The notes: a model not told the origin generated them from the letters alone. Counted from the first letter of the stretch, positions 8,312-21,860 are shown. The stretch: 32,000 nt of DNA from Bacteriovoracia bacterium (GCA_050251055.1 JBFWNL010000004.1:13863-45862), one strand, 5' to 3'. Numbers and translations are program-made.

Positions 8312-9142
8312 TTAGAGAAGCTTCAGAGCCGATTCGCTGTTGTGGTTCGCTTGACTGAGGACTGCGACACCTGCCGTGGACAGGATGTTGGACTTGGTCA
8401 ACTCGCTGACTTCCGTCGCCATATCCACGTCGTAGATCTGGCTGCGCGCCGCCGAGAGATTCTCGTCGTAGATGCGCAAGTTGTTGACCGTCGCTTGCAG
8501 TCGGTTCTGAAGCGCACCCATTTCGGCGCGATTCTCAGTCAGGACCTTGATGCCCATGTCGATCTTCTCGAGGTTGTTCTGGGCGGATTCTTTCGAAGCC
8601 ACCGTCATACCTTGGACCCCAAGGCGATCGGACGTGGTGTTGATTTTGGCCGTGTCGTAGACGAAGCGGTCTTCGCCCGGAATGTTGTTCAGACCCACTT
8701 GGACTTCCAACGGGGAACCTTCCCCAGTCAAGAGCTTGCGCCCGTTGAATTCCGTGGACCGAGAGATCCGGTCGATTTCACCGGTCATCGCTTGCACTTC
8801 TTTGTCGATGAAGCCGCGCTCCGTATCACCGATGGTGTCGGAAGCCGCTTGAATCGACAATTCGCGCAGGCGAATCATGATGTTCCCGATTTCATTCATG
8901 CCGCCTTCGGCCGTCTGAATGAGCGAGATACCGTCGTTAGCGTTGCGAACGTCCTGCCGCATGGAGCGGATTTGCGCGCGCATGCCTTCGGAGATCGCCA
9001 AGCCCGCGGCGTCATCGGCCGCGCGGGTAATGCGAGAACCCGAAGCCAACTTTTCCTGCGAGCGCTTTACAGAGTCATTCGATTGATTCAAATGACGTTG
9101 AGCACCTAACGATTGAACGTTAGTAGATACACGTAGACCCAT
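8312..9142 (-). CDS. Flagellin (copy 2); start reassigned to the internal ATG at 9142 instead of track start 9205
   Basis: MGLRVSTNVQSLGAQRHLNQSNDSVKRSQEKLASGSRITRAADDAAGLAISEGMRAQIRSMRQDVRNANDGISLIQTAEGGM; the upstream extension is not flagellin-like. Confidence 0.96.
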   Translation of the reverse strand: MGLRVSTNVQSLGAQRHLNQSNDSVKRSQEKLASGSRITRAADDAAGLAISEGMRAQIRSMRQDVRNANDGISLIQTAEGGMNEIGNIMIRLRELSIQAASDTIGDTERGFIDKEVQAMTGEIDRISRSTEFNGRKLLTGEGSPLEVQVGLNNIPGEDRFVYDTAKINTTSDRLGVQGMTVASKESAQNNLEKIDMGIKVLTENRAEMGALQNRLQATVNNLRIYDENLSAARSQIYDVDMATEVSELTKSNILSTAGVAVLSQANHNSESALKLL

Positions 9143-9346
9143 ACATACACCCCCATCATGAGCCCGACGGTCAGCGCACGAACGAGCCGCGCCCTCTGCG
9201 GTCATCCGCGGAAAGCGTACAGTTTCGCCCGAGCGCCTAGGCCGCGCCCCGATAGTTACTATTCAGTTGTGACGGGATTTGCTGTACCCCGTCGGAAGTT
9301 TGACGAAGCGAGACCCATTCTCACTCCTGCACCCTTCCTACTGACT

Positions 9347-9428: not shown

Positions 9429-10484
9429 TCATTGTTTTATCTTAGATATTTTATTGGCCGCCTCATAGGGGTCGATCTTTCGCTGGACAAGCCGAGTCAC
9501 CAGCTTTTTACCCGGCGCACCAGCAAATGTGTTTTCGACCTTTTTTTGAAGTTTTTCAGTCAGGATATCTAGGGTCTCATTTTTTAGGAACTCTTCGAGC
9601 CGGCGGGTTCGTAGCCCGCTCCGGGTAAGGTAGGCCTGGTGCTGGTCGACAGCCCCGAGGAGGTCATCTATCCCCTCGTTTTCGACCGCCTTGGTCTTTT
9701 GAACCGGAATCTCCCAATGGGAGGACTGGCGGCCCGCCCCTTCCGTGTCCACCCCGGCATCCGTCGGGGCGTCTGCTAGGGTGTCTGCCATAGAGTCCGT
9801 TAGAGCGACCATGTTCTTGAGCTCTTTCACGAGCTTCTCGGCCTCAGGTCGGTCACTTTTATTCACGACGAAGACATCGGCGATCTCCATCAAACCCGCC
9901 TTCATCACCTGGATCGAGTCACCGCTCTCGGGCACGAGCGTGACGATCACCGTCTGCGCGAGCCTCAAAATATCGAGCTCGGTCTGCCCCACGCCCGCGG
10001 TTTCCACGAGCACGACATCGAAGCCAGCCGCATCCAATAAAAGCACCACTTCCTTCGTCGCATGGGAAAGCCCGCCATGTTTGCCGCGCGTGCCGAGCGA
10101 GCGAATATACACGCCCCTATCGCCGTAGTGCTGCTGCATGCGGATGCGGTCACCTAAAATGGCGCCGCCCGAAAATGGGCTCGAGGGATCCACGGCGACG
10201 ATCGCGACGCGCTTACCTTGCTTGCGCAGACGCACGGTCAGCTTATCGACCAAGGTGGACTTACCCGCGCCCGGCGGCCCCGTGATTCCCCAGACCTGCG
10301 CGCGGCCGGTTTTGGAAAACAGCATGCGAATGATTTCCGGCAGATCCTGGTCGCGGTTCTCGATCTTGGAAATGAGACGCGCTAGCGAAAGCCGATGACC
10401 GTCCATCATCTTCGAAACCAGCTCCGAGACGGCCGGCTTCTTCCGAATTTTCTGGGTTTTACCTGGACGAGCCATTACCCCCAA
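9429..10484 (-). CDS. meaB: MeaB/ArgK-type G3E GTPase (methylmalonyl-CoA mutase-associated)
   Basis: WGITGPPGAGKSTLVDKL Walker A; VAVDPSSPFSGGAILGDRIRM; FDVVLVETAGVGQTE; VFVVNKSD. Confidence 0.93.
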   Translation of the reverse strand: MGVMARPGKTQKIRKKPAVSELVSKMMDGHRLSLARLISKIENRDQDLPEIIRMLFSKTGRAQVWGITGPPGAGKSTLVDKLTVRLRKQGKRVAIVAVDPSSPFSGGAILGDRIRMQQHYGDRGVYIRSLGTRGKHGGLSHATKEVVLLLDAAGFDVVLVETAGVGQTELDILRLAQTVIVTLVPESGDSIQVMKAGLMEIADVFVVNKSDRPEAEKLVKELKNMVALTDSMADTLADAPTDAGVDTEGAGRQSSHWEIPVQKTKAVENEGIDDLLGAVDQHQAYLTRSGLRTRRLEEFLKNETLDILTEKLQKKVENTFAGAPGKKLVTRLVQRKIDPYEAANKISKIKQ

Positions 10485-10564: not shown

Positions 10565-11584
10565 CTAAAAAACCTGCTGAAACGTCGGCTCGGCGGGAGC
10601 CGCCTCTTTATTTGATTTTACTGGGGGTTTCGCGCCGGCCGGAGCGCGCGACGGGGCCGGGGGCACGATGGCGGCGGCCTTTTCACCCACGCCTAGGCTT
10701 TTCTCCGCCTCGCCACCCGGGGGCGGGGGGAGCGCGGGGGCGGCTGGGGTCTCGGCCGTGTTCATGGCGGCGTTAGCCGGACCAGACGTGGGAACGCCCG
10801 GGGCGGGAGTCGATTCGGGCGGCGCCGGCGCATCGAAATCCATCGCGAACGCTTTTTCCTTCTCTTCCTTCGCCTTGGCTTCCGCTTCTTTTTTCTTGGC
10901 GAGCTCAATTTCCGCCAGGCGCTTCGGTTCCATGATCGCGTACTTATCCAAAACGGAACCTTGCTCCTCGTCCCGGCGCGCGAGCGAGAACGGATTCTGA
11001 ACCTCTTCGACCAGCTCCTTGGACATGGCCGGGCCGACGAGCACGCGGCGGTAGAAAACATACTCGCTGATCATGCGATACTGCTTGATCGCCCAGCGTA
11101 GGTAGCGGGGGTCTTTGTATTCCGCGCGAAAAGCGCGGGAAATCGGCGTGAGGAAATCGAACGTCTCGAGCACGGCTTTCTGGCGCTCTTCGACATAAAA
11201 TGATTGTGAAAGACGCTCCTGCAGCTTGCGAATTTTATGGAAGAAGCACCAGTGATACTTCACCGCATCCTGCTGCACGAGCTCGCGCGCGCCCTTGAAA
11301 ACTTCTTCCTTGCTGTTCGTCGCCGTCTGCAGCTTCTTAAAATTTTCGTCGCAGTTCTCGAGATCCTTGGCCACCGGCGCTTCCTTCCGAATGAAGAGCG
11401 CGTTCAAATCACCGATGTCGTAGGTCTCGGGATAGGGGACCTGCACAAAGCCGGGAACTTCCGGTAGCGGCTCCATCGGGCGCACTTCCTGCGTGCCGCA
11501 ACCCGCGGTCAAACCGAGCGCGACGGCGCCGAGGCCAATGAGCCCGAGCCGAAGGTGGGTGGAAGTTTGACGCTTCATAGACAC
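10565..11584 (-). CDS. Predicted lipoprotein with Ala/Pro/Lys/Glu-rich C-terminal region
   Basis: Signal peptide plus lipobox (LRLGLIGLGAVALGLTAGC); charged linker KKKEAEAKAKEEKEK and Pro/Ala-rich tail. Confidence 0.7.
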   Translation of the reverse strand: MSMKRQTSTHLRLGLIGLGAVALGLTAGCGTQEVRPMEPLPEVPGFVQVPYPETYDIGDLNALFIRKEAPVAKDLENCDENFKKLQTATNSKEEVFKGARELVQQDAVKYHWCFFHKIRKLQERLSQSFYVEERQKAVLETFDFLTPISRAFRAEYKDPRYLRWAIKQYRMISEYVFYRRVLVGPAMSKELVEEVQNPFSLARRDEEQGSVLDKYAIMEPKRLAEIELAKKKEAEAKAKEEKEKAFAMDFDAPAPPESTPAPGVPTSGPANAAMNTAETPAAPALPPPPGGEAEKSLGVGEKAAAIVPPAPSRAPAGAKPPVKSNKEAAPAEPTFQQVF

Positions 11585-11790
11585 TGTCTCCAGTAGTCCT
11601 ATCGGAAACCTGACTAGGCGAGTAAACTACCTTAATAATTTTTTGACGCTATAAAAGCTCTATTAAGTCCACGCATTAGCCGCTCGACGGCGAAAATCGC
11701 CAGTTCTACACCAGCGTCAAAGCTCGGCAATCATTCAGGAATCAAGAAGATCAGCGGGCTTACCGAAAAAGAAAATGAGGAATGGTGCCC

Positions 11791-13017
11791 ATGAAGGCCT
11801 GGTTCGTACTACTCACGATCATTAATACAGGTTCCGCGTTCGCGGCGGATCCTCCTACGTCAGCCGCGCCCGCGCCTTCCGCCTCTTCGCCGGCCGCCGC
11901 GACCACGCCGCCCCCGGCTTCCGGCACTACCCAAGCGACGACGGCGAATCCCACGGGAAATCCGAATCAAGGCAAGCCGACGCAATCGACGTTCGCGCCG
12001 GCCGCCGACAAAGATCAAAAGACGCGCAACTTCTATCAGGTGCTCGAAGACGTGATGGGCGATTTCGAATACGACCTAAAAAATGGACAGGTACGCGGCG
12101 TAAAAGATGTTTCCATCCGCGCTATCGCCACGAGCGAGAACGTGCCGCCTTCATTCAAACGCCAGCTCGAGATCTTGCTCACCGAGCGCGTGATCAAGAA
12201 TACGCAAAGCCGCGTGATCCAGTGCCTGCCTTGCCAATCGAAAAAAGCCACCTTGAGCGGCGACAACGTCGTGATCTCTTCCAACGAGCACAACGCGGTC
12301 GAGCTCGCGCGCCTGGCGAAAATCCACGGCATCGCTAGCTATATGGACGTGGCGTTCTCGTACCAGCCCACGGGGCTGTTGCTCTCGATCGCCATCATGG
12401 ACGCCGAGAATAGCGCCATCCTGTGGTCGCGCAGCTACAATTCGGAAACCTCACGCGCCGAGGCCTTCCGCCGTGGCGTGGACTACACGCAGGTCGACGA
12501 GGCCCGCCGCAAGGAAAGTTACGAGCCCACCACGCAATACCGCCCGACTTTGTATTATCTCTTCGAGAAGGACATCAGCTCTTACAGCGGGATGCTCGGG
12601 CTCGGTTTCCGCATGGTGGAGCGCTATGACAATCGGAAAAAAGAAGTCGGCTTCGAAATCAACTACCTGCTCAGTACGTCGACGCTCACCGGCGGCTCCG
12701 CCACTGCCACCACTACCCCGAGCGTGTACGGGGGGTTTAATGTCACGATGCTCTTCGTGCACGCATGGAACTTCATCGGGGATCTGGAAAACTACAACAA
12801 ACCGCGCGGAAGCATCTCGGTCGGCCTGGGCGGCACTTATTCGTCGGGTTTTTTGGGAGCGCTGCTTCGCACGGGTTACGAGTGGCGTTTGGGCAAGCAT
12901 TGGGCGGTTACGGCGATCCTAGGTTACCGACCGCCGTCCACCGCGTTTATTTCAGGAAGTGAAGCTGGCTCCGTTTCGGGGCTGGAGTTTGGAGTGGGGA
13001 TTAGTGCGTTACTTTAA
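11791..13017 (+). CDS. Secreted/outer-membrane protein: CsgG/FlgO-like N-terminal region and beta-barrel-like C-terminus (track start 11782; ATG at 11791 fits the upstream GAGGAA better)
   Basis: Signal peptide (MKAWFVLLTIINTGSAFAADP), Pro/Ala/Thr linker, DVSIRAIATSENVPPSFKRQLEILLTERVI...ELARLAKIHGIASYMDVAFSYQPTGLLLSIAIMDAENSAILWSRSYNSE (CsgG/FlgO-like pattern by eye), then alternating amphipathic Gly/aromatic strands to a hydrophobic C-terminus. Confidence 0.6.
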   Translation: MKAWFVLLTIINTGSAFAADPPTSAAPAPSASSPAAATTPPPASGTTQATTANPTGNPNQGKPTQSTFAPAADKDQKTRNFYQVLEDVMGDFEYDLKNGQVRGVKDVSIRAIATSENVPPSFKRQLEILLTERVIKNTQSRVIQCLPCQSKKATLSGDNVVISSNEHNAVELARLAKIHGIASYMDVAFSYQPTGLLLSIAIMDAENSAILWSRSYNSETSRAEAFRRGVDYTQVDEARRKESYEPTTQYRPTLYYLFEKDISSYSGMLGLGFRMVERYDNRKKEVGFEINYLLSTSTLTGGSATATTTPSVYGGFNVTMLFVHAWNFIGDLENYNKPRGSISVGLGGTYSSGFLGALLRTGYEWRLGKHWAVTAILGYRPPSTAFISGSEAGSVSGLEFGVGISALL

Positions 13018-13813
13018 GGAAGCGATACACACCACCCGGGCAAGCCGGGCCGTACGAGGCGCAGCGCTCACGCTGCTGGCCGTCGTGTGTGCCGCGTTTC
13101 CCCAAGGCTGCGCCTCCATGAAGAACGCTCTAGGCTTAAACAACAATCAGCAGGAACCTTCGAAACCCATCGAAGACCCGTTTGGAAACTTCTACGAAGC
13201 GGCCAAGCACCGCAACGAAAATGTGATTTTACGCACGAAAAAAGGTGACCGCTCCATTGAGGTGGAGATGCCTTCGCGCGGTGAAGAGCAGCTCGCCGAT
13301 CTGGTGGTCCCGATGTCGCCCCAGTTCGCCGACACCGGCTCCGGCCGCGGCCCCGCCTCAACGGGGGACGGCTACGGCCTGGACGCGAAGTACCAGGAGC
13401 AACGGCCTGGCCTTACGGACCGCGAAATCGCCCAGAGCATGCCCCAAGGCAGCCCGGAAATGGCCGGGAAACGCAGCGAAATCGAAGAGGGTTTGGGCCT
13501 GGTGGGCGCCGACGATTCCGCCCCCGAAAACGATAAGAGTTATCTGGCCGCGATCGACTACATTAAGCAGCTCTATAAGAGCCGGCGTTACGAGGCGGCG
13601 CTCATCGAGATCGATCGCATGCTCCCTCGCTATCCGACGGACGCGAAGCTCTATGAGATGCGCGGGACCCTGCTCGCGAAGCTGGGCTACGAAGATCTAG
13701 CGATGAAGTCGTGGGAGCAAGCCCTGTCCCTGAACCCGCGTAACAAGTCGTTAGCCAAGTTTCTGCAAGCCCGGAAGGATCCATTGAGAAGGGGGACGGC
13801 GTCATCGCCCTAA
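13004..13813 (+). CDS. TPR-containing lipoprotein (track start 12959; GTG at 13004 favoured)
   Basis: Hydrophobic signal then ...VVCAAFPQGC; TPR-like YKSRRYEAALIEIDRMLPRYPTDAKLYEMRGTLLAKLGYEDLAMKSWEQALSLNPRN; GGAGTGGGG before GTG; short overlap with upstream ORF. Confidence 0.7.
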   Translation: MRYFKEAIHTTRASRAVRGAALTLLAVVCAAFPQGCASMKNALGLNNNQQEPSKPIEDPFGNFYEAAKHRNENVILRTKKGDRSIEVEMPSRGEEQLADLVVPMSPQFADTGSGRGPASTGDGYGLDAKYQEQRPGLTDREIAQSMPQGSPEMAGKRSEIEEGLGLVGADDSAPENDKSYLAAIDYIKQLYKSRRYEAALIEIDRMLPRYPTDAKLYEMRGTLLAKLGYEDLAMKSWEQALSLNPRNKSLAKFLQARKDPLRRGTASSP

Positions 13814-16236
13814 TGAATATGGTGAAGCATTCCTTCAACTACCGCCAAATCATTCTCTGGGGGCTGACCCTTTATCTCACGCTCGCCACGCCGTTCGCCT
13901 TCGGCAGCAGCTATCAGGACTACGAGCGCGTGAAACGCGCTTCCGAAACCCAAGTGCGCAACATCGTGCAGCCGCTCGTTTCTAAATACTGCCAAGACCA
14001 ATGCGAGCTCTTGAACGTCGAGGCGGAAGTAAAGACGGATGATCCGGCGGCGATCGCCCCGGGGTTCGAGGACACGGACACCGCTGGCGGCTTACGCCTG
14101 GTGCCGGCGGTCGTGCGGGTGAAGCTCTTGATCGACGAGATGGTCGGCCCCAACCTGCGCCGTAACCTCATTGACCTCATCCATAAGCACCTCAACGCGA
14201 TGGAATATCCGGTGGCGATCGACACTACGCTCACGCGCTTCCCGCAACCCTTGAACTCCGCACGCAAGGTCGCTGAGCTGCGGGACAAGGTCACGAAACA
14301 ATTCAAAGAAACGCTGGGCCAGCTTTTCAACCAATTCTGTCCTGAGCAATGCCTCCTGGCCGACTATGACATTAAGGTCGAACCGGTTAACTTAGAGGAA
14401 ACGCAGTACGGTTCCTCGGGCGAATACGTGCAGGACGGCGACACCGCGATCCGCGTGAAGAAAGTGACCGGCACGGTGCTCCTCGACACGACGCTCACGC
14501 CCGACGAGCAAAACAACATCATTGAAATGACGAAGCTCAAGACGAGCTACCTCAAGAACGTCGAGCTCATGGCCCAAACCATGACGTTTCCGCATCCACT
14601 ACCGTTCGAAGGCGACGGAAAGCTGGGCGTGGGTCGCGGAGGGCTGGCGGGCCGCGGGGGCAAGAGCCTCTCGGAATCGCGCTCGCTCGCCTCCAACAGC
14701 GACTCCAAGTCGACCTTAAGCAAGCTCGATAAGCAAAATTCCACCAGCAACAGCACGAATAGCAACAACAGCACCAACAGCAGCTCGAACAACGTCAACA
14801 GCAAGGACGCGATCGAGAAAAATGAAAACGCCACGAAGAACGAAAAGTTCGAGCGCTACGAGAAGATCGAGCGCGTGGAAGACGGCGATGCCGTTCAAGA
14901 ACAGCTCAAACGATACGGCCTAATCGCCCTGGTTTTCGGCTGTTCCGTGGTGGCGCTCATGGTGCTCATGTGGATCGCGCTGGCGCGTCGCAACGACCGC
15001 GGTCGCGCGGGCGGACTGCCGCGCTTTATCCAGGGGATCACCCCCGAGTTCCTGCAGCCCAAGGCGCCCGCCGCCGGCGATGGCGGCGTCGGATCCGGTC
15101 GTGGCGAGCTCATCGCCAAGCGGTACGAGATCGAGCAGCTTTGCGAAGAGCTTACCAAGGTGTTTGCCGAGCAGCCCAAGGTGGCCAAACACGTCTTTAC
15201 CCGCATCCTGACCGAAGAGGGCGTCGAAATCACCGCCGACTACCTCGCGATCTTTGGCGAAACGATCGTCATGGACATGTTGCGCGATCCGAACCTACAG
15301 CGTGACTTGACCGAACTGATGGAGTTCTTCGCGAAGAATCAGATTGAGCTCAACGACGACGAGAAACTCGATCGCTTAAAACGGTTGCACAACCGCACGG
15401 TCGCTTCGAAGCTGATCGTGATGGGCAAACGTACGTCCAACTCGTTCGAGTTCCTGTTCGACATGGACAGCCTGCAGGTGTTGGAGCTGATCAAGAACGA
15501 ATCCGTCACCGTGAAGGCGATCGTCATCACGCAATGCGACCCGCAGAAGCGCACGGCTATCTTCAACCATCTGGACGAGCCGACGCGCATGAAGCTCCTG
15601 AACGAACTCTCGCGTATCGACTACCTGCCGCGCGACTACATCTTCAACGTGGCCAACGCTCTCAAGCGCAAGCGTCAGGACAACCCGAAGCTCAACACGG
15701 AAGCCCTGCCGGGATCCGACGTGCTGGTCGGATTGCTCGAACGCACGCCCTTCGATATTCAACGCAATGTCGTGCAACAGCTCGAAGCCACCAACCCCGA
15801 CAACGCCCGGGCGGTCAAGAGCAAGCTCGTCAGCATCGACACGCTCACGTATCTACGCGATGCCCAGCTGCTCGAGATGGTCATGGGCCTGAAGCATGAC
15901 GAGCTCCTGCAGTTCCTGAAAGGCGCGCCGAAGCATATCTGCGACACGATCTACCGCAAGGCTCCGAAGGAGCTCGTCGAAGAACTCAACGAAGAGTTGG
16001 GATCGGTGTCCGAAGTGGGACGCGATGCCTACCAGACCATCGAGCGTAAGCTCATCAATCGCATCAAAGTCATGGCCAACGAGGGCCACATCAACCTCGT
16101 GGAAACCAACGAGCGGATGTTCACCGATCGGCAAAGCAACGTCGAGGCGATCACCCGCGGCGGCCAGGGCGGCGACGGCAACACCGGTGGCATGACGGGC
16201 ACGGGCGGGCAGTTCAAGAAAGTGGCGGGTTGGTGA
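13813..16236 (+). CDS. Membrane-anchored FliG-like protein: signal peptide, two duplicated extracytoplasmic CxxxC modules (FliF/ring-building-motif-like by eye), Ser/Asn linker, TM helix, FliG-like cytoplasmic region
   Basis: 807 aa. TAATG overlap with upstream gene. TM approx residues 370-391 (LIALVFGCSVVALMVLMWIALA). FliG-M/C-like: FEFLFDMDSLQVLELIKNESVTVKAIVITQCDPQKRTAIFNHLDEPTRMKLLNELSRID and LRDAQLLEMVMGLKHDELLQFLKGAPKHICDTIYRKAPKELVEELNEELG. Confidence 0.8.
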   Translation: MNMVKHSFNYRQIILWGLTLYLTLATPFAFGSSYQDYERVKRASETQVRNIVQPLVSKYCQDQCELLNVEAEVKTDDPAAIAPGFEDTDTAGGLRLVPAVVRVKLLIDEMVGPNLRRNLIDLIHKHLNAMEYPVAIDTTLTRFPQPLNSARKVAELRDKVTKQFKETLGQLFNQFCPEQCLLADYDIKVEPVNLEETQYGSSGEYVQDGDTAIRVKKVTGTVLLDTTLTPDEQNNIIEMTKLKTSYLKNVELMAQTMTFPHPLPFEGDGKLGVGRGGLAGRGGKSLSESRSLASNSDSKSTLSKLDKQNSTSNSTNSNNSTNSSSNNVNSKDAIEKNENATKNEKFERYEKIERVEDGDAVQEQLKRYGLIALVFGCSVVALMVLMWIALARRNDRGRAGGLPRFIQGITPEFLQPKAPAAGDGGVGSGRGELIAKRYEIEQLCEELTKVFAEQPKVAKHVFTRILTEEGVEITADYLAIFGETIVMDMLRDPNLQRDLTELMEFFAKNQIELNDDEKLDRLKRLHNRTVASKLIVMGKRTSNSFEFLFDMDSLQVLELIKNESVTVKAIVITQCDPQKRTAIFNHLDEPTRMKLLNELSRIDYLPRDYIFNVANALKRKRQDNPKLNTEALPGSDVLVGLLERTPFDIQRNVVQQLEATNPDNARAVKSKLVSIDTLTYLRDAQLLEMVMGLKHDELLQFLKGAPKHICDTIYRKAPKELVEELNEELGSVSEVGRDAYQTIERKLINRIKVMANEGHINLVETNERMFTDRQSNVEAITRGGQGGDGNTGGMTGTGGQFKKVAGW

Positions 16237-16751
16237 TGATCGAAATAACGCCTACCGTCGAGTTATTGAAAGAGATCAATCTGTTCGCCTCGTTCAATGA
16301 GCACGAGCTGAACGAGATCTTGCGTACCGGTGAATCAAAGGTATTCGAGGCCTATAGCAACGTGGTCATCGAAGGCGAGCTGAGCTGGGGGCTTTACATT
16401 ATTTTGGAAGGCACGGTCGGCATCTTCAAGAATAGCGCGACCGCGAAGGATATTACCTACGATATCGGCCAGCTAAAGAAAGGCAGCTTCTTCGGGGAGA
16501 TGTCGCTCGTCGACGAGAATCCGCGCTCGGCCACCGTTCGCGCGCTTACCGAATGTCAGCTTTTTTTCATCTCCAAGGAAAGCTTCTCCGCCTTCCTGGA
16601 CCGGTCCGGCGACGGAAAAAACCGGTTTTACGAACGATGCGTGAAAATCCTGGTTGGCCGTTTGCGCGAGCTGAACGACAACTACGTCATCAGCCAGTAC
16701 CAGCTGTGGAAGACCGCGCTGGAGAAAGATAAAGAAGAGGAAGTAGCCTAA
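16236..16751 (+). CDS. Single-domain cyclic-nucleotide-binding (CRP/CAP-type cNMP) protein without HTH (track start TTG 16230; ATG 16236 gives ATGA overlap)
   Basis: INLFASFNEHELNEILRTGESKVFEAYSNVVIEGELSWGLYIILEGTVGIF and phosphate-binding cassette FFGEMSLVDENPRSATVRA. Confidence 0.9.
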   Translation: MIEITPTVELLKEINLFASFNEHELNEILRTGESKVFEAYSNVVIEGELSWGLYIILEGTVGIFKNSATAKDITYDIGQLKKGSFFGEMSLVDENPRSATVRALTECQLFFISKESFSAFLDRSGDGKNRFYERCVKILVGRLRELNDNYVISQYQLWKTALEKDKEEEVA

Positions 16752-17536
16752 TGAATATCTCATCTTTATTCGGCGTATTGTTGGGTATCGGGGTCGTCTA
16801 CTCATCGCTCCACGAGAGCGGCATGGACATGATCTTCTTCCTGAACTTTCACGGGGTGGTCATCGTTTGCGGCGGCACCCTTGCCGCTGCCAGCATCAGC
16901 TTTCCCATGACGAAGATCGTCTCGCTATTGAAAGTATTTTTCCTGCGCGTGCTGGGCCGCAACCGGATTGACTACCAAGGCACGATCGAACAGATCTTGG
17001 ATTTGAATAAAAAAGTTAGCATCGGTAGTGCCGCGTTGAAGGACGTAATTCAGACCATCAAGCACCCTTTCTTAAAGGAAGCCGTGGGCCTGGTCGCCAC
17101 CGGCGTGCTCACCGAGCGCGAAATTCGCACCGTGCTCGAGCAGCGCATTAAAACGATGGAATCGCGCTACTTGCACGAAGCCAACATGTTCAAGGCCATC
17201 GGCAAGTTTCCGCCGGCCTTCGGGCTGCTCGCCACCACGCTCGGCATGATCGCGCTTTTGCAGCAGATGGGAAAACCGGGCAGCGAAAAGCTCATCGGAC
17301 CGGCCATGTCCATCGGGTTGATCGGCACCCTATACGGGATCGCGCTCACGAACCTAGTCTTTCTCCCGATCGCGGAAAACCTCACCGAACGCACCGAGGA
17401 AGAAATGGTGCTGCGCCGGATGATCGTCGAAGGGGCCGTGCTGCTCAAAGCCCAAACCAATCCGTTGGCCCTGCGCGAAAACCTCAACTCGTTCCTGGCT
17501 CCAAAGGACCGGGTTACCCGCAAGTCAGCGGCCTAA
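16751..17536 (+). CDS. motA: MotA/PomA-family flagellar-type stator protein
   Basis: GVVIVCGGTLAAASISFP, AIGKFPPAFGLLATTLGMIALLQQMG, IGPAMSIGLIGTLYGIALTNLVFLPIAENL; TAATG coupling with the upstream gene. Confidence 0.93.
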   Translation: MNISSLFGVLLGIGVVYSSLHESGMDMIFFLNFHGVVIVCGGTLAAASISFPMTKIVSLLKVFFLRVLGRNRIDYQGTIEQILDLNKKVSIGSAALKDVIQTIKHPFLKEAVGLVATGVLTEREIRTVLEQRIKTMESRYLHEANMFKAIGKFPPAFGLLATTLGMIALLQQMGKPGSEKLIGPAMSIGLIGTLYGIALTNLVFLPIAENLTERTEEEMVLRRMIVEGAVLLKAQTNPLALRENLNSFLAPKDRVTRKSAA

Positions 17537-17554: not shown

Positions 17555-18370
17555 ATGGCCGTTAACGATTTCCTGAAAGCCGCCAAGCAGATTCAGGAAG
17601 AAGAAAAAAAGAAACAAGATCCGCCCAAAAAAGGGGGCCACGACGACGAGTCGAACTGGCTGATTTCCTACGCGGACATGATGACCTTGCTTTGCGGATT
17701 CTTCATCATGCTTTTCAGCATGTCTAGCCTAAGCAAACCGAAATACGAGGCCGCCGCGAAGGAGATTTCGGAGCACTTCGGCGCGGTGAAGCAGGACGAA
17801 GTGCCGAATCCAGAGCTCGTGAACGAGATGAAAAAAGTCATCCACGAATCCCATCTAGACAAGGAGGTGAAAGTCACCTCCACCCAAGAGGGGGTCACGA
17901 TCGTATTCGCTTCTACCGTGCTCTTTAACTCGATGAGCTCTTACATCCGCGAGGACGGGCGCACGGTGCTGAATCAGCTCATCGGCACGATCAAAGGGCA
18001 GCAAGAAAAGGGCGATGAACGTTTTAAGATCGTAGTGGAAGGCCATACCGACGCGCAACCCATCTTGAGCGGAATCTATCCGTCTAACTGGGAGCTTTCT
18101 AGCGCACGCGCCACGAAGGTGGTCCGCATGTTTCATGACGAAGGCTTCGATCCCGCTCGCCTCATGGCGATCGGCTACGCCGACTCGCGTCCCGAAGCTA
18201 AGAACCGCACGCTGGCGGGCGCCTGGGACGAAGAAGCTCTGAAAAAAAACCGCCGCGTCGTCATCCACGTTTTCGATCCCAGCGTCGACTCCATTCCTTG
18301 GCGCGAAAAAACCGCCGCCCCGCCGCCGCGCGCCGCTGCATCTTCTGGCCCGGCAGAATCTGCCCATTGA
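17555..18370 (+). CDS. motB: MotB-family stator protein with OmpA-like peptidoglycan-binding domain
   Basis: NWLISYADMMTLLCGFFIMLFSMSS with the ion-channel Asp (residue 41); OmpA-like VVEGHTDAQPILSGIYPSNWELSSARATKVVRMFHDEGFDPARLMAIGYADSRP. Confidence 0.94.
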   Translation: MAVNDFLKAAKQIQEEEKKKQDPPKKGGHDDESNWLISYADMMTLLCGFFIMLFSMSSLSKPKYEAAAKEISEHFGAVKQDEVPNPELVNEMKKVIHESHLDKEVKVTSTQEGVTIVFASTVLFNSMSSYIREDGRTVLNQLIGTIKGQQEKGDERFKIVVEGHTDAQPILSGIYPSNWELSSARATKVVRMFHDEGFDPARLMAIGYADSRPEAKNRTLAGAWDEEALKKNRRVVIHVFDPSVDSIPWREKTAAPPPRAAASSGPAESAH

Positions 18371-18417: not shown

Positions 18418-19452
18418 ATGCGTTGGAATTGCCCTCACTGTGGAACCACGTTGACCGTATCGGACGATAAGGTAGGCGAGAACTGGTCGTTTTCACGTTG
18501 CTACTCTTGCCAAGGCTTCGCGCTGGTGAGGAAATCGCAGGTCAGCATCATTAAAGTTCATCAACCTCCCTCCGGCGAGCAGTACATCGTCACCACTCAT
18601 CAGCAGGAGCAGGCTTCCGCGACCCACTCCCAAACGCATCACGACGCACGCCCCGCCGCCCGCCCCGTCGTGCGACCCGTGGTTCGCCAACCGGCGGCCC
18701 TGCCCCCGCCGATCGAAGTCGCGCCCGTCATGCACCAGGCTCCTTCTATGCATATGGCCGTTCCCCTGGCGGCCCCGACTGCTCCCAGCCCTACGAAAAC
18801 GCAGATGTTCACCATATCCGATGGCACGGGCGCCGAGACGATCACCGTCGCCGCGACTACCTCTAGTCCACGCCGAAAAATGCCGGCCGCGCTCGTACCC
18901 ATTGGTATCGGGCTTGCGGGCGCTATCGCCATATCGTCGGGAGTTTATCTCTATCAGCAAGGCCAGGCCTTGTTTCAACTGGCGCAAAAACCGATCGCAG
19001 CGGAATCCCCCACGGAAATGCAGGTGGCGCGATTGCAAGCCCCCCCCTCGCTCGATCGCATCCCGCAAAGCGCGATGGCGCCCGAGCGCGTGACCGAAAT
19101 CCGCAGCCTGCCTAAAATCGAGCGCATCGATCCTCCCGAAGTCCGTCCGGCGGCCCCGATCGCGATCACCAAGCGCGTAGAAGAAAAGCGAGAGGAGTCG
19201 GACGACACCCCGGCCATCGAGCCGCGCCCCACCGCGGTGCAGGTCAAAAACAGTTACGCGAATCTCCGCGCCGGCCCTAGCCTCGAGCATCCCATCGTGG
19301 GCGTGGCCGAACCCGGCACGATCTACCTGATCAAGACCTGGGAGGGGCGCTGGTTCAACATCGTGCCCGAAGATCCCGCGCAGGCGGCGCTTCAAAAGAA
19401 ATCGATGTGGGTGCGTAATGACCTGGTGGAGACCCTCGTCTCCACGAATTAA
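18418..19452 (+). CDS. Zinc-ribbon / TM / SH3-like domain protein
   Basis: N-term MRWNCPHCGTTLTVSDDKVGENWSFSRCYSCQGFALV (two CxxC, zinc-ribbon_5/MJ0042-like); TM ALVPIGIGLAGAIAISSGVYLY; C-term VKNSYANLRAGPSLEHPIVGVAEPGTIYLIKTWEGRWFNI (SH3b-like). Confidence 0.8.
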   Translation: MRWNCPHCGTTLTVSDDKVGENWSFSRCYSCQGFALVRKSQVSIIKVHQPPSGEQYIVTTHQQEQASATHSQTHHDARPAARPVVRPVVRQPAALPPPIEVAPVMHQAPSMHMAVPLAAPTAPSPTKTQMFTISDGTGAETITVAATTSSPRRKMPAALVPIGIGLAGAIAISSGVYLYQQGQALFQLAQKPIAAESPTEMQVARLQAPPSLDRIPQSAMAPERVTEIRSLPKIERIDPPEVRPAAPIAITKRVEEKREESDDTPAIEPRPTAVQVKNSYANLRAGPSLEHPIVGVAEPGTIYLIKTWEGRWFNIVPEDPAQAALQKKSMWVRNDLVETLVSTN

Positions 19453-19457: not shown

Positions 19458-20936
19458 CTAGCGATCCAACCCGATGGGTTCGCAACGCCAAAGGGTCAGC
19501 GTTTTCGCCGGAAAGTTTAAACGCCGAAACTCACGCGCCAGCCGCGGCTGGCAATTTGCCTCGAGAAACCGGGGCGGCTCCGCGTAACGATTGTCCGCCA
19601 CATAATAAACCGGCTTCAATAGCTTCGGCCATTCGGGGCCCCATCCGCTCACGGCTTCCGTTTCCGGCCACTCGTCACGCTCGCGAGCGGGGCGCGGAAC
19701 GCGGGCGACGCCTTCCACGCGCTTGAGCGCGAAGGCCGCTTGGGCGGCCGTTTGGTACCGGCTCGCTAAGACCACCGGCTCCGTTTCGTCCGGCGCGGCT
19801 TCCGCCAGCATCTCGCCAAAGCCCGCCCAACCGACGAGATCGTTACTGACGTCCCATTTCGGTTCCAGCTCCTTGCCACTGAAAGTGCGCGAACTCCAAG
19901 CCATGAGTGGCAGCTGACAGGAAAGCAAGATAACGACGACCCAGCCCAAACCGTAAGCGGCCTGCAGCCGCGGCCACAGGCCATCGACTTCTGACTTTTC
20001 AGTCATGCGGCCAATGGCTTCCAAGGCGAGCGGCAGCCACGCCGCAAAGATCCAATGCGGTTTAAAATCCGAAAAAAGCGGCTGAATCGCGTAGGCGAGC
20101 AGGGGCGGCAAGGCCCAAGCCCACGCGAAGCGCGAGACGCGCTCACCCGCGCGTGCGCGGCGCAGGCCGCGCAAAAAAAACCAGACCAACGCCGGTCCGA
20201 GCAGCACGAGCTGCAGGATCCAAAAACGCCCGAAGCGCGCCCAGGAAAGCCCCGTCCCACCATGTCGCTCTTTCATTTGATAAGCGAGCGCGGCCCAGTC
20301 GTGGGCGGAATTCCAAAGCACCGTGGGCAAAAGGCCGATCGCCGTAGCCACGAGCATTACTCCCAGCCCTGGCGCGCGGGAGCCGGGACGGGAAAAAATC
20401 AGGGCGCAAAGCACCGCCGACGCGGCCACCGCCCCCCCGGAAAGCTTCGCCCACATCGCGATCACGATCCCCGTCGCCAGCCACCCAAAATGCCACCGAG
20501 ACGACGATCCCGCGGCGATTTCCCAAGCTCCGTTCATCGCCAGCAGGACGCCCGCGAAGAGCGGCAGATCCGGCACCGCCATCCAGGCAAATCCGTAGAG
20601 AAAAGTCGTCCCCAGCCACGCGGCCACCAGCCAGCCCGGCGACACCGGCACGAACGCGCGCAAAATCCAACGCAACCCCAGGAAGAAAATCAGCGCCGCG
20701 TAGACCGCCGACACCAGCCGCACGGAGATTTCGGCCGAAACCAACCGCTCCGCCAACCAAATCGACCAGACGATGGCGGGCGGGTGGTAGGCGAACCCCC
20801 AGTCGGGCCGCTGCGCGAGCACCCAGTAATAAGCTTCGTCGTCTGAGAGCCCGAACGAATTCCCGAAGATGAGGTAGAAACCAAAGACCCCAAGCGTGGA
20901 CCAGGCCAGCCAACGCGGCAGAGGGGCGATGCGCAT
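19458..20936 (-). CDS. PMT/ArnT-like polytopic glycosyltransferase
   Basis: NSFGLSDDEAYYWVLAQRPDWGFAYHPPAIVWSIWLAERLV typical of the GT39/GT83 N-terminal loop; many hydrophobic segments. Confidence 0.82.
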   Translation of the reverse strand: MRIAPLPRWLAWSTLGVFGFYLIFGNSFGLSDDEAYYWVLAQRPDWGFAYHPPAIVWSIWLAERLVSAEISVRLVSAVYAALIFFLGLRWILRAFVPVSPGWLVAAWLGTTFLYGFAWMAVPDLPLFAGVLLAMNGAWEIAAGSSSRWHFGWLATGIVIAMWAKLSGGAVAASAVLCALIFSRPGSRAPGLGVMLVATAIGLLPTVLWNSAHDWAALAYQMKERHGGTGLSWARFGRFWILQLVLLGPALVWFFLRGLRRARAGERVSRFAWAWALPPLLAYAIQPLFSDFKPHWIFAAWLPLALEAIGRMTEKSEVDGLWPRLQAAYGLGWVVVILLSCQLPLMAWSSRTFSGKELEPKWDVSNDLVGWAGFGEMLAEAAPDETEPVVLASRYQTAAQAAFALKRVEGVARVPRPARERDEWPETEAVSGWGPEWPKLLKPVYYVADNRYAEPPRFLEANCQPRLAREFRRLNFPAKTLTLWRCEPIGLDR

Positions 20937-21860
20937 TTAACTTCTACCGGCCACCGGATCCGGCGTCTTCACTTGCGGATCCGGAACGCGGAACTGAATA
21001 ACGGTCTCGATGCCGGAGAGGAAGTGATTCCAGTACTCTTCGGCCCGCTGCGGATTGGTCGACGGGAGCTCCAGGGTAAGCGTGGGAATGCCGCGCTCTT
21101 GGCCGGTGTAATTTCCGAGCGAACCTGGATAAAAACCGCCCGAGTGGGCGTTCACGTGCTGCCGCAGCTGCAGGCACTTCGTTACGTACTCGGAAGGGAA
21201 CTTCGCGAGCGCAAGCACGTCGGGGCCGTCATAGTCCATGAAATTCAGTGGCGAATGCACGGAGATGATCTTATTGGGCTTGTACTCGGAAATCAGCTTC
21301 GCCTGGAACTGCGTTTCCGGCTCTGACTCGGCTTGCTTGCCGGGAAAATAACGGGGATCCGCGCGATACTTCTTCTTCCACATCCTGGTCGCATCCTTCG
21401 CCCAGTCCGCGGTATTGAAATTACGGTTCACATCCACTTTGTTCGCATTCGTGCGCGTCCGCGGGTGGCGATAAAAGCCGTCCGGATTCACCAGCGGGGC
21501 GATCACGATGCGCGTTCCCGGGTATTTGGAAGTGTTCGCCTCCAGCCAATCCATCAGGCGCAGACCCAGGAAGAGCGGAGTGGTTTCGTCGCCGTGGACC
21601 ATCGAAAATACGAGCGTGGTGTTCTTCGCGTTCGGATCGCCGAACTCACGGAAAACCAACGGGCGCCCCTTCACCGAACGCCCTCCCACGCGCATGTCCT
21701 TAAATTGGCAGGCGTCGAGCTTCCACTTGAATTTCTTGAGCTCCGGGTTCAGCTCCTGGCACCACTTCTTCAGATCCTCGTCGGCCCCGATCATCGCGGA
21801 ACCCGTGAGGGAAACCAGCATGGCCACGGCCAGCGCGGCGCCCGGCAGTCGCCGCTTCAT
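20937..21860 (-). CDS. M14-family zinc carboxypeptidase with signal peptide (start reassigned to internal ATG at 21860)
   Basis: FSMVHGDETTPLFLGLRL (H..E), VIAPLVNPDGFYRHPRTRTNANKVDVNRNFN, ISVHSPLNF, TLELP. Confidence 0.85.
   Translation of the reverse strand: MKRRLPGAALAVAMLVSLTGSAMIGADEDLKKWCQELNPELKKFKWKLDACQFKDMRVGGRSVKGRPLVFREFGDPNAKNTTLVFSMVHGDETTPLFLGLRLMDWLEANTSKYPGTRIVIAPLVNPDGFYRHPRTRTNANKVDVNRNFNTADWAKDATRMWKKKYRADPRYFPGKQAESEPETQFQAKLISEYKPNKIISVHSPLNFMDYDGPDVLALAKFPSEYVTKCLQLRQHVNAHSGGFYPGSLGNYTGQERGIPTLTLELPSTNPQRAEEYWNHFLSGIETVIQFRVPDPQVKTPDPVAGRS

What the first reader, a model, noticed from the sequence alone, without database searches (positions are those of the whole stretch)
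13813..16236. FliG-like region fused behind a transmembrane helix and a secreted N-terminal half (FliF-FliG-like architecture)
FliG is normally a soluble C-ring protein docked on the cytoplasmic tail of FliF. Here residues ~1-32 look like a signal peptide, ~40-262 are extracytoplasmic, 370-391 are a single TM helix, and ~437-770 match FliG N/M/C-type helical repeats. The segment VTGTVLLDTTLTPDEQNNIIEMTKLKTSYLKNVELMAQTMTFPHP resembles the ring-building/FliF periplasmic pattern before the TM. Artificial and mutational FliF-FliG fusions are known to be tolerated in enteric flagella, so a natural single-chain anchor plus torque subunit is mechanistically plausible. It is probably much smaller than real FliF.
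Basis: partly seen in the sequence, partly recalled or inferred. Interest (0 to 1): 0.88.

Follow-up and report, generated by a model that had tools for sequence, protein, structure and literature searches.

The report
Membrane-anchored FliG rotor with own stator
A predatory-type bacterium that already has a flagellum encodes one protein joining a ring-type periplasmic half to a complete flagellar torque protein (FliG), always beside its own MotA/MotB stator and two outer-envelope proteins. It looks like an undescribed, stripped-down motor built from flagellar parts.

Summary
ORF 13813-16236 (+, 807 aa) has a cleavable signal peptide, two alpha-beta-beta-alpha-beta (ring-building-motif-like) periplasmic domains, an S/N-rich linker, one TM helix and a complete FliG (N, M, C).

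- **C-terminal half:** FliG_M and FliG_C pass Pfam cut-offs. All top 13 solved-structure fold hits are FliG.
- **N-terminal half:** the best solved-structure fold hits are FliF MS-rings. No sequence-level link to FliF or SctJ was found.
- **Not the flagellar rotor:** it lacks RBM3, a second TM and the FliM-binding EHPQR motif.
- **Operon:** OM-barrel-like protein, TPR lipoprotein, fusion, cNMP-binding protein, MotA, MotB. The order is conserved in 79 Bdellovibrionota loci.
- **Distant relatives:** one to two RBM domains; one member is named as a Persicimonas MAG. In three of four loci whose DNA could be read they keep the same five modules in a different gene order, with no flagellar genes within 10 kb.
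- **Host:** flagellated (FliD, FliS and two flagellins in the window).

Best reading: a ring-forming, membrane-anchored FliG rotor driven by a dedicated flagellar-type stator, with no switch complex, export gate or rod. Its output is unknown.

The closest precedent is the ~330-aa chlamydial FliF-FliG fusion. No description of this system turned up in the searchable literature. Ring formation, rotation and independence from the flagellum are inferred, not shown.

The parts
11782..13017 (+). A411: signal peptide, low-complexity spacer, novel conserved periplasmic domain (res ~82-240, invariant CxxC 148/151), then a C-terminal region that looks like a small OM beta-barrel (family ends in ...GISALF)
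   Evidence: No Pfam or NCBIfam hit. Alignment A5. Weak beta-barrel hints only: Autotransporter E=0.016, DUF3575 in 11 of 22 members. Present in 67 of 79 loci. Homologues sit next to distant relatives of the fusion in L082, L084 and L086.
13004..13813 (+). B284: lipoprotein (invariant lipobox Cys, ...QGC|AS), conserved N-domain (ILRTKKGDRSVEVE), C-terminal TPR. The start is uncertain (GTG 12959 or GTG 13004) and overlaps the end of A411.
   Evidence: TPR_2 and related Pfam hits, below cut-offs. Alignment A6 with invariant Cys. N-termini of homologues. Present in 71 of 79 loci. In L082 the A411 N-domain and B284 lie in one ORF. Junction sequence.
13813..13908 (+). Fusion protein C807: signal peptide (res 1-32)
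   Evidence: Sequence and alignment A1: hydrophobic core plus AxA/AxG-type sites in all 25 members. The distant tiers also start with signal peptides.
13909..14241 (+). C807 RBM-like domain 1 (res 33-143): alpha 31-63, beta 64-75, PGF loop, beta 96-108, alpha 113-127, beta 134-141; invariant C60/C64
   Evidence: AF2 pLDDT 93. Foldseek top hits are FliF rings. Invariant residues. This is the only domain shared with the 540-620-aa tier.
14251..14598 (+). C807 RBM-like domain 2 (res 147-262): alpha 147-175, beta 180-192, insert, beta 211-225, alpha 230-243, beta 250-257; invariant C176/C180
14599..14841 (+). C807 S/N-rich low-complexity periplasmic linker (res 263-343), variable in length and sequence
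   Evidence: Alignment A1
14842..14985 (+). C807 conserved juxtamembrane motif (E344...ERVExGD 353-359) and single TM helix (res 370-391)
   Evidence: Invariant columns in A1. The hydrophobic stretch is followed by RRNDRGR.
15121..16122 (+). C807 cytoplasmic FliG-like module: N-like (437-535), M (536-650), C (656-770)
   Evidence: Pfam, TIGR00207 partial match, PDB phmmer, AF2, Foldseek, hhalign against E. coli FliG
15958..16023 (+). Torque-helix equivalent (res 716-737, KAPKELVEELNEELGSVSEVGR). E727/E728 sit at the E. coli D288/D289 positions, E720 at R281, R737 next to R297. K703 (at K264) lies upstream.
   Evidence: Residue-by-residue hhalign against E. coli FliG. Conservation across the three tiers.
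16216..16233 (+). C-terminal tail motif KKVAGW after a disordered Gly-rich tail
   Evidence: Alignment A1. The [KR][KR]V[AS]GW form occurs only in loci that also have the cNMP gene, but many loci with that gene lack it.
16236..16751 (+). D173: stand-alone cyclic-nucleotide-binding protein (cNMP domain plus C-terminal helix, no DNA-binding domain). The ATG overlaps the fusion's TGA (TGATG).
   Evidence: PF00027 70.8 bits. NCBIfam partial matches to CRP-type cNMP domains. Junction. Present in 67 of 79 loci; absent in about 10 where MotA directly follows the fusion.
16751..17536 (+). MotA: flagellar-type (PomA/MotP-like, four-helix interface) stator A subunit
   Evidence: PF01618. PDB MotA E=3e-32, PomA E=1e-26. 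Best NCBIfam hits are MotP, MotA and PomA, all below equivalog cut-offs. Interface residues.
17555..18370 (+). MotB: plug domain, TM with the conserved Asp (YADMMTLL), OmpA-like peptidoglycan-binding domain
   Evidence: PF13677 66.7 bits, PF00691 50.1 bits. Best NCBIfam hits are MotD, MotS and MotB. Sequence.
18418..19452 (+). G344: possible accessory with an MJ0042-type Zn ribbon, Pro-rich linker, one TM and a C-terminal SH3-like domain
   Evidence: Follows MotB in 51 of 79 loci. Not found next to the distant relatives.

Best explanation
The 807-aa protein is the rotor subunit of a compact, flagellum-derived rotor-stator machine encoded by one operon (A411, B284, fusion, cNMP protein, MotA, MotB).

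Shown:
- After signal-peptide cleavage the protein is a single-pass membrane protein. Two RBM-like domains face the periplasm and a complete FliG (N, M, C) faces the cytoplasm.
- The adjacent MotA/MotB are flagellar-type stator proteins with a plug, the channel Asp and an OmpA-like anchor.
- The five modules travel together across deep divergence and in different gene orders.

Inferred:
- The RBM-like domains oligomerise into an inner-membrane ring, as in FliF and SctJ. Each subunit then carries its own torque domain at 1:1.
- Peptidoglycan-anchored MotA5B2-type units dock around the ring. Ion flow turns MotA against the conserved torque helix (the acidic pair at the D288/D289 positions is kept in all tiers), and the ring turns in the membrane.
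- There is no switch: the FliM-binding EHPQR and MFXF motifs are not kept, and no fliM or fliN is in the cluster. The motor would therefore be unidirectional and regulated by the cNMP-binding protein, analogous to YcgR with c-di-GMP.
- On the periplasmic side the ring is coupled to the A411 periplasmic domain and the TPR lipoprotein B284, which tie it to the outer membrane.

What is finally moved is unknown. I consider it more likely than not (about 55:45) that the machine works apart from the flagellum.
For: - Domain architecture.
- Operon packing: TAATG and TGATG overlaps at the B284/fusion and fusion/cNMP junctions; the cNMP and MotA ORFs share base 16751; there is an 18-nt gap before MotB.
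- No predicted terminator on the + strand between 13,000 and 18,400.
- Synteny in 79 loci: MotA 74, B284 71, MotB 70, A411 67, cNMP 67.
- The periplasmic-domain profile finds only 156 clusters among 1.84 billion representatives. All ten scanned had FliG_C and/or MgtE_N hits, FliG_C above the cut-off in eight.
- Distant relatives sit beside MotA-MotB: 40-44% identity within the tier-3 family, E of 1e-9 or weaker against the window's profile. HMMs of A411 and B284 hit the genes just upstream in L082, L084 and L086, giving the order A-B-MotA-MotB-fusion. In L082 the A411 N-domain and B284 are fused.
- Stator type and functional residues.
- Torque-helix conservation.
- Interface divergence consistent with a private pairing. 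MotA has Ala at the R90 position and Asn/Lys/Gln at the E98 position. The FliG-like helix has Glu/Asp at the R281 position. The canonical pairs are stated in PMC12505986.
- No flagellar genes within 10 kb in L082, L084 or L086.
Against: - Ring formation and rotation are not shown: no oligomer prediction, no imaging.
- RBM similarity is fold-level with low TM-scores (0.28-0.53), and other small alpha/beta folds (OsmC, KH-like) also appear in the hit list.
- The canonical MotA R90 and E98 are not kept, so the interface could be non-functional or could work differently.
- In the window's own family the cluster lies 3-5 kb from flagellin genes (the window and 22 related loci), and all identifiable hosts are flagellated. 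A flagellar role is therefore not excluded.
- One distant relative (P0145, L085) has no adjacent MotAB.
- No candidate load or output component is identified.
Confidence: 0.6

Rival explanations
1. Flagellar accessory. The fusion, A411 and B284 form extra rings or a scaffold around the sheathed flagellar motor of this clade, comparable in role to PflA/PflB/FlgP or MotX/MotY/FlgT. They would recruit or position a particular MotAB set. The FliG-like ring would be a second, outer track or a holder for stators.
For: - Filament genes lie 3-11 kb upstream in the window (FliD, FliS, two flagellins), and flagellins lie within 8 kb in 22 related loci.
- B284 is a TPR lipoprotein and A411 is OM-associated, like known periplasmic motor scaffolds (my knowledge of Campylobacter and Vibrio motors).
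- MotA and MotB are of the flagellar clade.
- Cultured BALOs carry 1-4 motAB pairs, all assigned to the flagellum (PMC11323537).
Against: - Distant relatives keep the five-module set with no flagellar genes within 10 kb.
- Known scaffolds bind MotB or the P/L rings in the periplasm. None carries a cytoplasmic FliG with a conserved torque helix.
- The flagellin adjacency is loose: MeaB and a divergent lipoprotein gene intervene.
- The family was not seen in cultured, flagellated B. bacteriovorus among the listed hits. The pattern-based scan could have missed it.
Confidence: 0.25
2. Regulatory stator dock (clutch or sink) without rotation. The membrane-anchored FliG-like array binds this MotAB, or competes for flagellar stators, under control of the cNMP-binding protein. 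It would tune motility or use stator engagement as a mechanosensor.
For: - A cNMP-binding protein is translationally coupled between the fusion and MotA.
- A conserved C-terminal tail motif could be a docking peptide.
- The ring may be immobilised if A411 and B284 tie it to the outer membrane.
Against: - The cNMP gene is absent in about 10 loci that keep everything else, and in all distant relatives examined.
- A mere dock would not need two conserved periplasmic RBM-like domains and two outer-envelope partners.
- The MotB plug and channel Asp are kept, suggesting active ion flow.
Confidence: 0.1
3. It is simply this organism's flagellar FliF and FliG in one gene, replacing the canonical pair.
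For: - Engineered FliF-FliG fusions assemble and function in Salmonella and Vibrio (PMC4768692, PMC11481574).
- I could not check for separate fliF/fliG in this genome.
Against: - There is no RBM3 or beta-collar region, which in FliF forms the S-ring that houses the export gate and rod (PMC11739650 abstract).
- There is no second TM.
- Only one of the five EHPQR residues is kept.
- TIGR00207 scores 50.7 bits against a cut-off of 226.7.
- The gene is not in a fliE-fliF-fliG-fliH type cluster.
- Relatives such as HD100 have a full canonical flagellar set (PMC11323537).
Confidence: 0.03
4. Anti-phage or other defence system of the Zorya type (MotAB-like motor plus effectors).
For: MotB matches PADLOC ZorB models (E=2.5e-21) and the cNMP protein matches cNMP domains of Pycsar effectors.
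Against: - Those hits are generic OmpA/MotB and cNMP-domain similarity.
- MotA has no ZorA hit, and the fusion, A411 and B284 have no PADLOC hit.
- MotA is far closer to flagellar MotA/PomA.
- No nuclease or other effector gene is in the cluster.
- The synteny is stable and core-genome-like.
Confidence: 0.02

Closest known systems
Chlamydiaceae FliF-FliG natural fusion (about 330 aa; Bergeron 2016, PeerJ, PMC4768692)
   Same: One polypeptide with a signal/TM segment, two periplasmic RBM-type domains (no RBM3), a TM helix and a cytoplasmic FliG-related domain. It occurs outside a complete flagellar gene set.
   Different: - The chlamydial protein has two TMs, and its cytosolic part matches only the FliG middle domain.
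- It has no FliG_C torque domain and no MotAB partner.
- It is proposed to work with the injectisome.
- The protein here has FliG N, M and C with a conserved torque helix, a dedicated MotAB, two outer-envelope partners and a flagellated host.
- No sequence comparison with the chlamydial protein was possible here.
Canonical flagellar rotor: FliF MS-ring plus FliG (and engineered FliF-FliG fusions of Salmonella and Vibrio, e.g. PDB 8z4d)
   Same: - RBM-type periplasmic domains (best fold hits).
- The FliG fold over all three domains.
- The acidic pair of the torque helix.
- A stator of the flagellar clade.
- The Vibrio fusion 8z4d is hit by sequence in its FliG part only.
   Different: - No RBM3 or collar, and one TM instead of two.
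- A cleaved signal peptide.
- No FliM-binding EHPQR motif and no MFXF hinge.
- No export gate, rod, hook or C-ring genes in the operon.
- No sequence-level similarity of the periplasmic half to FliF.
SctJ (PrgK/EscJ) inner-membrane ring of injectisomes
   Same: Sec-exported, two tandem RBM domains, then a C-terminal TM helix with the tail in the cytoplasm.
   Different: - SctJ is a lipoprotein with a short cytoplasmic tail and needs SctD.
- Here the N-terminus has a type-I signal peptide, the tail is a 415-aa FliG module, and there are no T3SS genes nearby.
- There is no sequence similarity.
Non-flagellar 5:2 ion-driven motors (ExbBD-TonB, TolQRA, AglRQS-Glt, GldLM, ZorAB)
   Same: An A5B2-type ion motor serving a machine other than, or additional to, the flagellum, linked to outer-envelope components.
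   Different: - Those motors pass force through the B-type or TonB-like subunit in the periplasm (ZorAB through a cytoplasmic ZorA tail), and they belong to the generic clade (PMC12505986).
- Here the stator is of the flagellar clade with a large cytoplasmic interface.
- Its presumed partner is a FliG torque domain.

Membership tests
FliG (flagellar rotor/switch protein) | FliG_M and FliG_C domains by profile | tested here: met
   PF14841 35.0 bits (cut-off 25); PF01706 44.5 bits (cut-off 23.3)
FliG (flagellar rotor/switch protein) | Full-length equivalog score (TIGR00207) | tested here: not met
   50.7 bits against a cut-off of 226.7
FliG (flagellar rotor/switch protein) | Three-domain armadillo-like fold (N, M, C) | tested here: met
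   AF2 pLDDT 86. The top 13 PDB fold hits are all FliG, with 3hjl aligned over 318 columns.
FliG (flagellar rotor/switch protein) | EHPQR motif (FliM binding) and MFXF hinge | tested here: not met
   EHPQ...R aligns to E563-S-V-T...E598, and MFLF aligns to LVSI. The family consensus is NESLTVK / KLVSxD.
FliG (flagellar rotor/switch protein) | Charged torque-helix residues (E. coli K264, R281, D288, D289, R297) | tested here: inconclusive
   K703 = K264. E727/E728 = D288/D289 and are kept in all three tiers. The R281 position is Glu/Asp with Lys/Arg one residue before. R737 is one residue after the R297 position.
FliG (flagellar rotor/switch protein) | Soluble protein docked non-covalently on the FliF C-terminal tail | tested here: not met
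   It is covalently preceded by a TM helix and a periplasmic half.
FliF / YscJ_FliF family (MS-ring) | Sequence match to PF01514, FliF or SctJ | tested here: not met
   No Pfam hit at E up to 1. A profile of 21 sequences against PDB sequences finds nothing relevant. hhalign against E. coli FliF gives probability 0.5%.
FliF / YscJ_FliF family (MS-ring) | Ring-building-motif fold (alpha-beta-beta-alpha-beta) | tested here: met
   Two such units at pLDDT 93. FliF rings are the best solved-structure hits, although TM-scores are low (0.28-0.53) and unrelated small alpha/beta folds also score.
FliF / YscJ_FliF family (MS-ring) | RBM3 with beta-collar; two TM helices | tested here: not met
   Only two RBM-like units, followed by a disordered S/N-rich linker. 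There is one TM plus a cleavable signal peptide.
FliF / YscJ_FliF family (MS-ring) | Assembles into a homo-oligomeric ring | not testable with these tools
Flagellar-type stator MotA/MotB (FIT clade of PMC12505986) | MotA_ExbB domain with closest relatives among flagellar MotA, PomA and MotP; large cytoplasmic interface | tested here: met
   PDB MotA E=3e-32 and PomA E=1e-26 over the full length. The best NCBIfam hits are MotP, MotA and PomA; ExbB scores only E=0.03.
Flagellar-type stator MotA/MotB (FIT clade of PMC12505986) | NCBIfam equivalog cut-offs | tested here: not met
   MotA 149 bits against 394. MotB 168 bits against 283.
Flagellar-type stator MotA/MotB (FIT clade of PMC12505986) | MotB plug, channel Asp, OmpA-like anchor; MotA channel prolines | tested here: met
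   PF13677 66.7 bits and PF00691 50.1 bits. YADMMTLL, PPAFG and FLPIA are read in the sequence.
Flagellar-type stator MotA/MotB (FIT clade of PMC12505986) | Conserved MotA R90 / E98 equivalents | tested here: not met
   In 70 family MotAs the R90 position (G-3) is Ala in 48, with Lys-Lys at G-5/G-4. The E98 position (G+5) is Asn/Lys/Gln/Ser, and G+6 is acidic in 68 of 70.
Zorya-type defence motor | ZorA plus ZorB with ZorC/D/E-type partners | tested here: not met
   MotB gives only generic ZorB hits. There is no ZorA and no partner hit.
Chlamydial FliF-FliG fusion | Sequence relatedness to CT719-type proteins | not tested
The comparison rests on the description in PMC4768692.

The most novel reading that the evidence does not exclude
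An autonomous, non-flagellar, envelope-spanning rotary machine. A ring of RBM-TM-FliG subunits would be turned by its own flagellar-type MotAB stators, without export apparatus, rod, hook or switch complex. It would be coupled to an outer-membrane barrel protein and a TPR lipoprotein, and in most members gated by a cyclic nucleotide. This would be the first use of the FliG-MotA torque interface outside the flagellum. It would be found in Bdellovibrionota and in a second lineage whose one named member is a Persicimonas (Bradymonadales) MAG. It could be either a minimal derivative of the flagellar motor core or a model for an early stage of it.
Probability: 0.38. Interest if true: 0.95.

Novelty: new variant of a known kind. 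Interest (0 to 1): 0.8.

Why it matters
All parts of the flagellar torque generator are normally studied inside a machine of about 30 proteins. This operon offers rotor and stator in three genes: one rotor polypeptide plus MotA and MotB. The rotor-to-membrane-ring stoichiometry is fixed at 1:1 and there is no switch.

- **If it rotates:** it is a natural minimal system for structural and single-molecule work on the MotA-FliG interface. It would also be a test case for how private stator-rotor pairings are insulated in cells that also run a flagellum.
- **Evolution:** it bears on how the motor was assembled from a ring-building module, a FliG/MgtE-type domain and an ion-driven 5:2 motor.
- **Biology:** it points to an unknown envelope function. 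The hosts identified so far are Bdellovibrionota and one Persicimonas MAG, both groups known as bacterial predators.

Tried and rejected
- **Sequence link of the periplasmic half to FliF, SctJ or SpoIIIAG:** Pfam at E up to 1, a 21-sequence profile against PDB sequences, and hhalign against E. coli FliF all found nothing.
- **Identity of A411:** Pfam, NCBIfam and a profile against PDB gave no real hit, only weak beta-barrel hints.
- **Charge-swap idea:** MotA E98 to Lys paired with FliG R281 to Glu holds for the window. At family level it weakens to acidic-to-neutral/basic against basic-to-acidic, and it does not carry over cleanly to the most distant tier. I keep it only as suggestive.
- **Tail motif and the cNMP protein:** the GW-ending form occurs only with the cNMP gene, but many loci with that gene lack it. 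There is no strict rule.
- **Taxon of the 7.5-Mb contig (L082):** cluster look-ups gave no names. One relative is labelled as a Persicimonas sp. MAG.
- **Canonical fliF/fliG in the same genome:** extending the window leftwards gave only FliS and housekeeping genes. The right-end protein is not on record.
- **Orthology to a B. bacteriovorus HD100 stator:** the 120 best MotA hits are all uncultured relatives at 67-77% identity.
- **Literature:** eight searches found the chlamydial precedent but no description of this family or operon.
- **Defence-system reading:** rejected.

Full report
**1. The observation**

Its C-terminal half is FliG.
- Pfam FliG_M (res 555-624) and FliG_C (656-762) both exceed their gathering scores.
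- phmmer against PDB sequences finds only FliG proteins. The best is full-length Aquifex FliG at E=6e-9 over query 488-762.
- An AlphaFold2 model of res 395-807, built on 92 homologues, has mean pLDDT 86. It is disordered only in the 40 residues after the TM and in the last 30.
- All 13 best solved-structure matches for that model are FliG, with 3hjl aligned over 318 columns. The N, M and C domains are therefore all present.

The N-terminal half gave a very confident model (res 30-266, pLDDT 93).
- It consists of two successive alpha-beta-beta-alpha-beta units, the order of elements that defines a ring-building motif.
- Its best matches among solved structures are FliF MS-rings (7bk0_B E=7e-7, 6scn_A E=1.5e-5). 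More FliF entries and YscD appear further down.
- TM-scores are low (0.28-0.53) because the two units are oriented differently from those in FliF. Other small alpha/beta folds also score.
- I therefore read this as 'RBM-like fold', not as proven homology.

Sequence methods see no relation to FliF or SctJ.

The signal peptide (AxA/AxG-type sites throughout the family) and the TM helix (22 hydrophobic residues followed by RRNDRGR) are read from the sequence and a 25-sequence alignment.

**2. It is a conserved protein family**

More than 150 full-length relatives (740-840 aa, 44-57% identity) exist. All carry Bdellovibrionota-type names where named; the window's own protein is listed as 'MAG: Bacteriovoracia bacterium'. 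A scan of one genome per species found it in 77 species-level genomes. Nearly all are Bdellovibrionota MAGs.

Family-wide invariants:
- two CxxxC pairs (C60/C64, C176/C180), one at the helix-to-strand junction of each RBM-like unit
- a PGF loop
- an ERVExGD motif just outside the membrane
- many FliG-core residues
- a basic C-terminal tail that ends in KKVAGW in about half of the members

**3. The context is the main finding**

The gene sits in a tightly packed operon:

| Gene | Coordinates | Description |
|---|---|---|
| A411 | 11782-13017 | Secreted; novel periplasmic domain, then a likely small OM barrel whose family ends in ...ALF |
| B284 | to 13813 | Lipoprotein with invariant lipobox Cys and C-terminal TPR |
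| Fusion | 13813-16236 | The 807-aa protein |
| D173 | 16236-16751 | 171-aa cNMP-binding protein without a DNA-binding domain |
| MotA | 16751-17536 | Stator A subunit |
| MotB | 17555-18370 | Stator B subunit |

- Stop and start codons overlap as TAATG and TGATG at the B284/fusion and fusion/cNMP junctions. The cNMP and MotA ORFs share base 16751.
- tblastn of these proteins against 79 related loci gives MotA in 74, B284 in 71, MotB in 70, A411 in 67 and cNMP in 67, in the same order. About ten loci lack only the cNMP gene.
- MotA is a full-length relative of solved flagellar MotA/PomA (E=3e-32 and 1e-26). Its best NCBIfam matches are MotP, MotA and PomA.
- MotB has the plug, the channel Asp (YADMMTLL) and an OmpA-like domain.

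**4. Distant relatives keep the same set**

A profile of the two periplasmic domains was run against 1.84 billion representative proteins. It found only 156 clusters, in three tiers:

| Tier | Length | Match to the profile |
|---|---|---|
| 1: the close family | 720-830 aa | E of 1e-42 or stronger |
| 2: divergent | 717-986 aa | Both RBM-like units, E about 1e-33 to 1e-12 |
| 3 | 540-620 aa | First unit only |

- All ten proteins sampled from tiers 2 and 3 showed FliG_C and/or MgtE_N hits. FliG_C was above the Pfam cut-off in eight. All start with signal peptides and keep the CxxxC and PGF motifs.
- Four of the five loci I could inspect have MotA-MotB immediately upstream of the fusion.
- HMMs built from the window's A411 and B284 families hit the genes just before MotA in L082, L084 and L086 (E=1e-15 to 1e-43).
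- In L082 the A411 periplasmic domain and B284 lie in a single 689-aa ORF.
- The order there is A-B-MotA-MotB-fusion, against A-B-fusion-(cNMP)-MotA-MotB in the window. No flagellar gene lies within 10 kb.
- The only named member of the third tier is a Persicimonas sp. MAG (Bradymonadales).
- One tier-2 protein (P0145) has no adjacent stator.

Five modules that stay together through this much divergence and a change of gene order are a functional unit.

**5. Relation to the flagellum**

The host is flagellated. The window carries FliD, FliS and two flagellins on the opposite strand 3-11 kb upstream. Flagellins lie within 8 kb in 22 related loci.

The fusion cannot plausibly be the flagellar FliF/FliG.
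- It has no RBM3 or collar region and only one TM.
- It scores 50.7 bits against TIGR00207's cut-off of 226.7.
- It keeps only the first residue of the FliM-binding EHPQR motif, and it has LVSI in place of the MFXF hinge.

I could not check for canonical fliF/fliG in the same genome.

**6. The torque interface**

Residue-by-residue alignment with E. coli FliG gives:

| E. coli FliG | This protein |
|---|---|
| K264 | K703 |
| R281 | E720 (K719 precedes it) |
| D288/D289 | E727/E728 |
| R297 | G736 (R737 follows it) |

- The acidic pair is conserved in all three tiers. The R281 position is Glu/Asp in tiers 1 and 2.
- In 70 family MotAs the canonical R90 position is Ala, with a conserved Lys-Lys one turn earlier. 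The E98 position is Asn/Lys/Gln and the next residue is acidic.
- The canonical pairs R90-D288/D289 and E98-R281 are described as highly conserved across bacteria (PMC12505986; 10.1101/2024.07.22.604496).
- The pattern here fits a working but re-tuned interface that might keep this stator off the flagellar rotor and the reverse. That is inference, and it does not carry over cleanly to tier 3.

**7. Mechanism proposed**

Shown: the topology and domain content, the stator type, and the conserved five-module linkage.

Inferred:
- The RBM-like domains build an inner-membrane ring.
- Each subunit presents a FliG torque domain.
- PG-anchored MotAB units turn the ring.
- There is no switch complex, so rotation is unidirectional.
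- The cNMP-binding protein gates or brakes the motor, by analogy with YcgR.
- A411 and B284 connect the ring to the outer membrane.

The load is unknown.

The main rival is a flagellar accessory ring or scaffold (about 0.25). Minor rivals are a non-rotating stator dock, a replacement of FliF/FliG, and a Zorya-like defence system. The last is contradicted by the absence of ZorA or any effector hit.

**8. Comparison with what is known**

- The nearest precedent is the chlamydial FliF, about 330 aa. It has two RBMs, lacks RBM3 and has a cytosolic FliG-M-like domain, and it is described as a natural FliF-FliG fusion (PMC4768692). It has no FliG_C and no stator.
- Engineered FliF-FliG fusions work in Salmonella and Vibrio (PMC4768692, PMC11481574).
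- SctJ shares the export route, the two RBMs and the C-terminal TM.
- Other non-flagellar 5:2 motors do not use a FliG-type partner.
- Eight full-text searches found no description of this family or operon. The library is incomplete, so prior description cannot be excluded.

**9. Verdict**

Taken with its operon, it is more interesting than the fusion alone.

I file it as a new variant of a known kind: a flagellar-type rotor-stator pair in a new, minimal, membrane-fused configuration. There is a substantial chance (about 0.4) that it is an autonomous non-flagellar machine.

Noticed in passing
window 375-9205 (- strand): Flagellar filament gene group: TPR protein (375-1553), a 144-aa gene and FliS (between 1553 and 2376, seen as called genes on identical Logan contigs), FliD (2376-3776) and two flagellins (6989-7822, 8312-9205). 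A TetR-family gene and a metallophosphatase lie in between.
   Followed up: partly
window 10565-11584 (-): A 339-aa lipoprotein (LTAGC lipobox) with a helical body and a Pro/Ala-rich tail, transcribed divergently from the cluster. tblastn finds it in 57 of 79 related loci. It has no Pfam or NCBIfam hit and is not found beside the distant relatives.
   Followed up: partly
window 18418-19452 (+): A 344-aa protein after MotB with an MJ0042-type zinc ribbon (TIGR02098 above its cut-off), a weak match to the N-terminus of gliding protein GltJ (E=0.01), a Pro-rich linker, one TM and a C-terminal SH3-like domain. It follows MotB in 51 of 79 loci.
   Followed up: partly
window 13990-14004 and 14338-14352 (C60/C64, C176/C180 of the fusion): Two invariant CxxxC pairs, one at the same place in each RBM-like unit, kept even in the most distant tier (e.g. 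LCPGRC in P0218). They could be disulfides, inter-subunit links or a metal site. This is unexplained.
   Followed up: no
L082 6226-8295: In a 7.5-Mb contig of a distant carrier, the A411 periplasmic domain and the B284 lipoprotein are encoded in one 689-aa ORF. An internal hydrophobic segment plus GGC lipobox-like site lies between them. It is either a true fusion or two genes without an intervening stop.
   Followed up: partly
window 19458-21899 (-) and L085: A 492-aa protein without any family hit and an M14 carboxypeptidase-like gene lie downstream in the window and in about half of the related loci. The same M14 gene is the neighbour of the stator-less distant relative P0145.
   Followed up: no
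window 9429-10484 (-): A MeaB/ArgK-type GTPase sits between the flagellin genes and the cluster. It is conserved at that place in 24 related loci.
   Followed up: no
window 22578-23441 (-), 23518-24912 (+): A XerC/D-type tyrosine recombinase and a GidA-family (TrmFO/MnmG-like) gene lie in the same order as in L001. This is core-genome synteny, not a mobile element.
   Followed up: no
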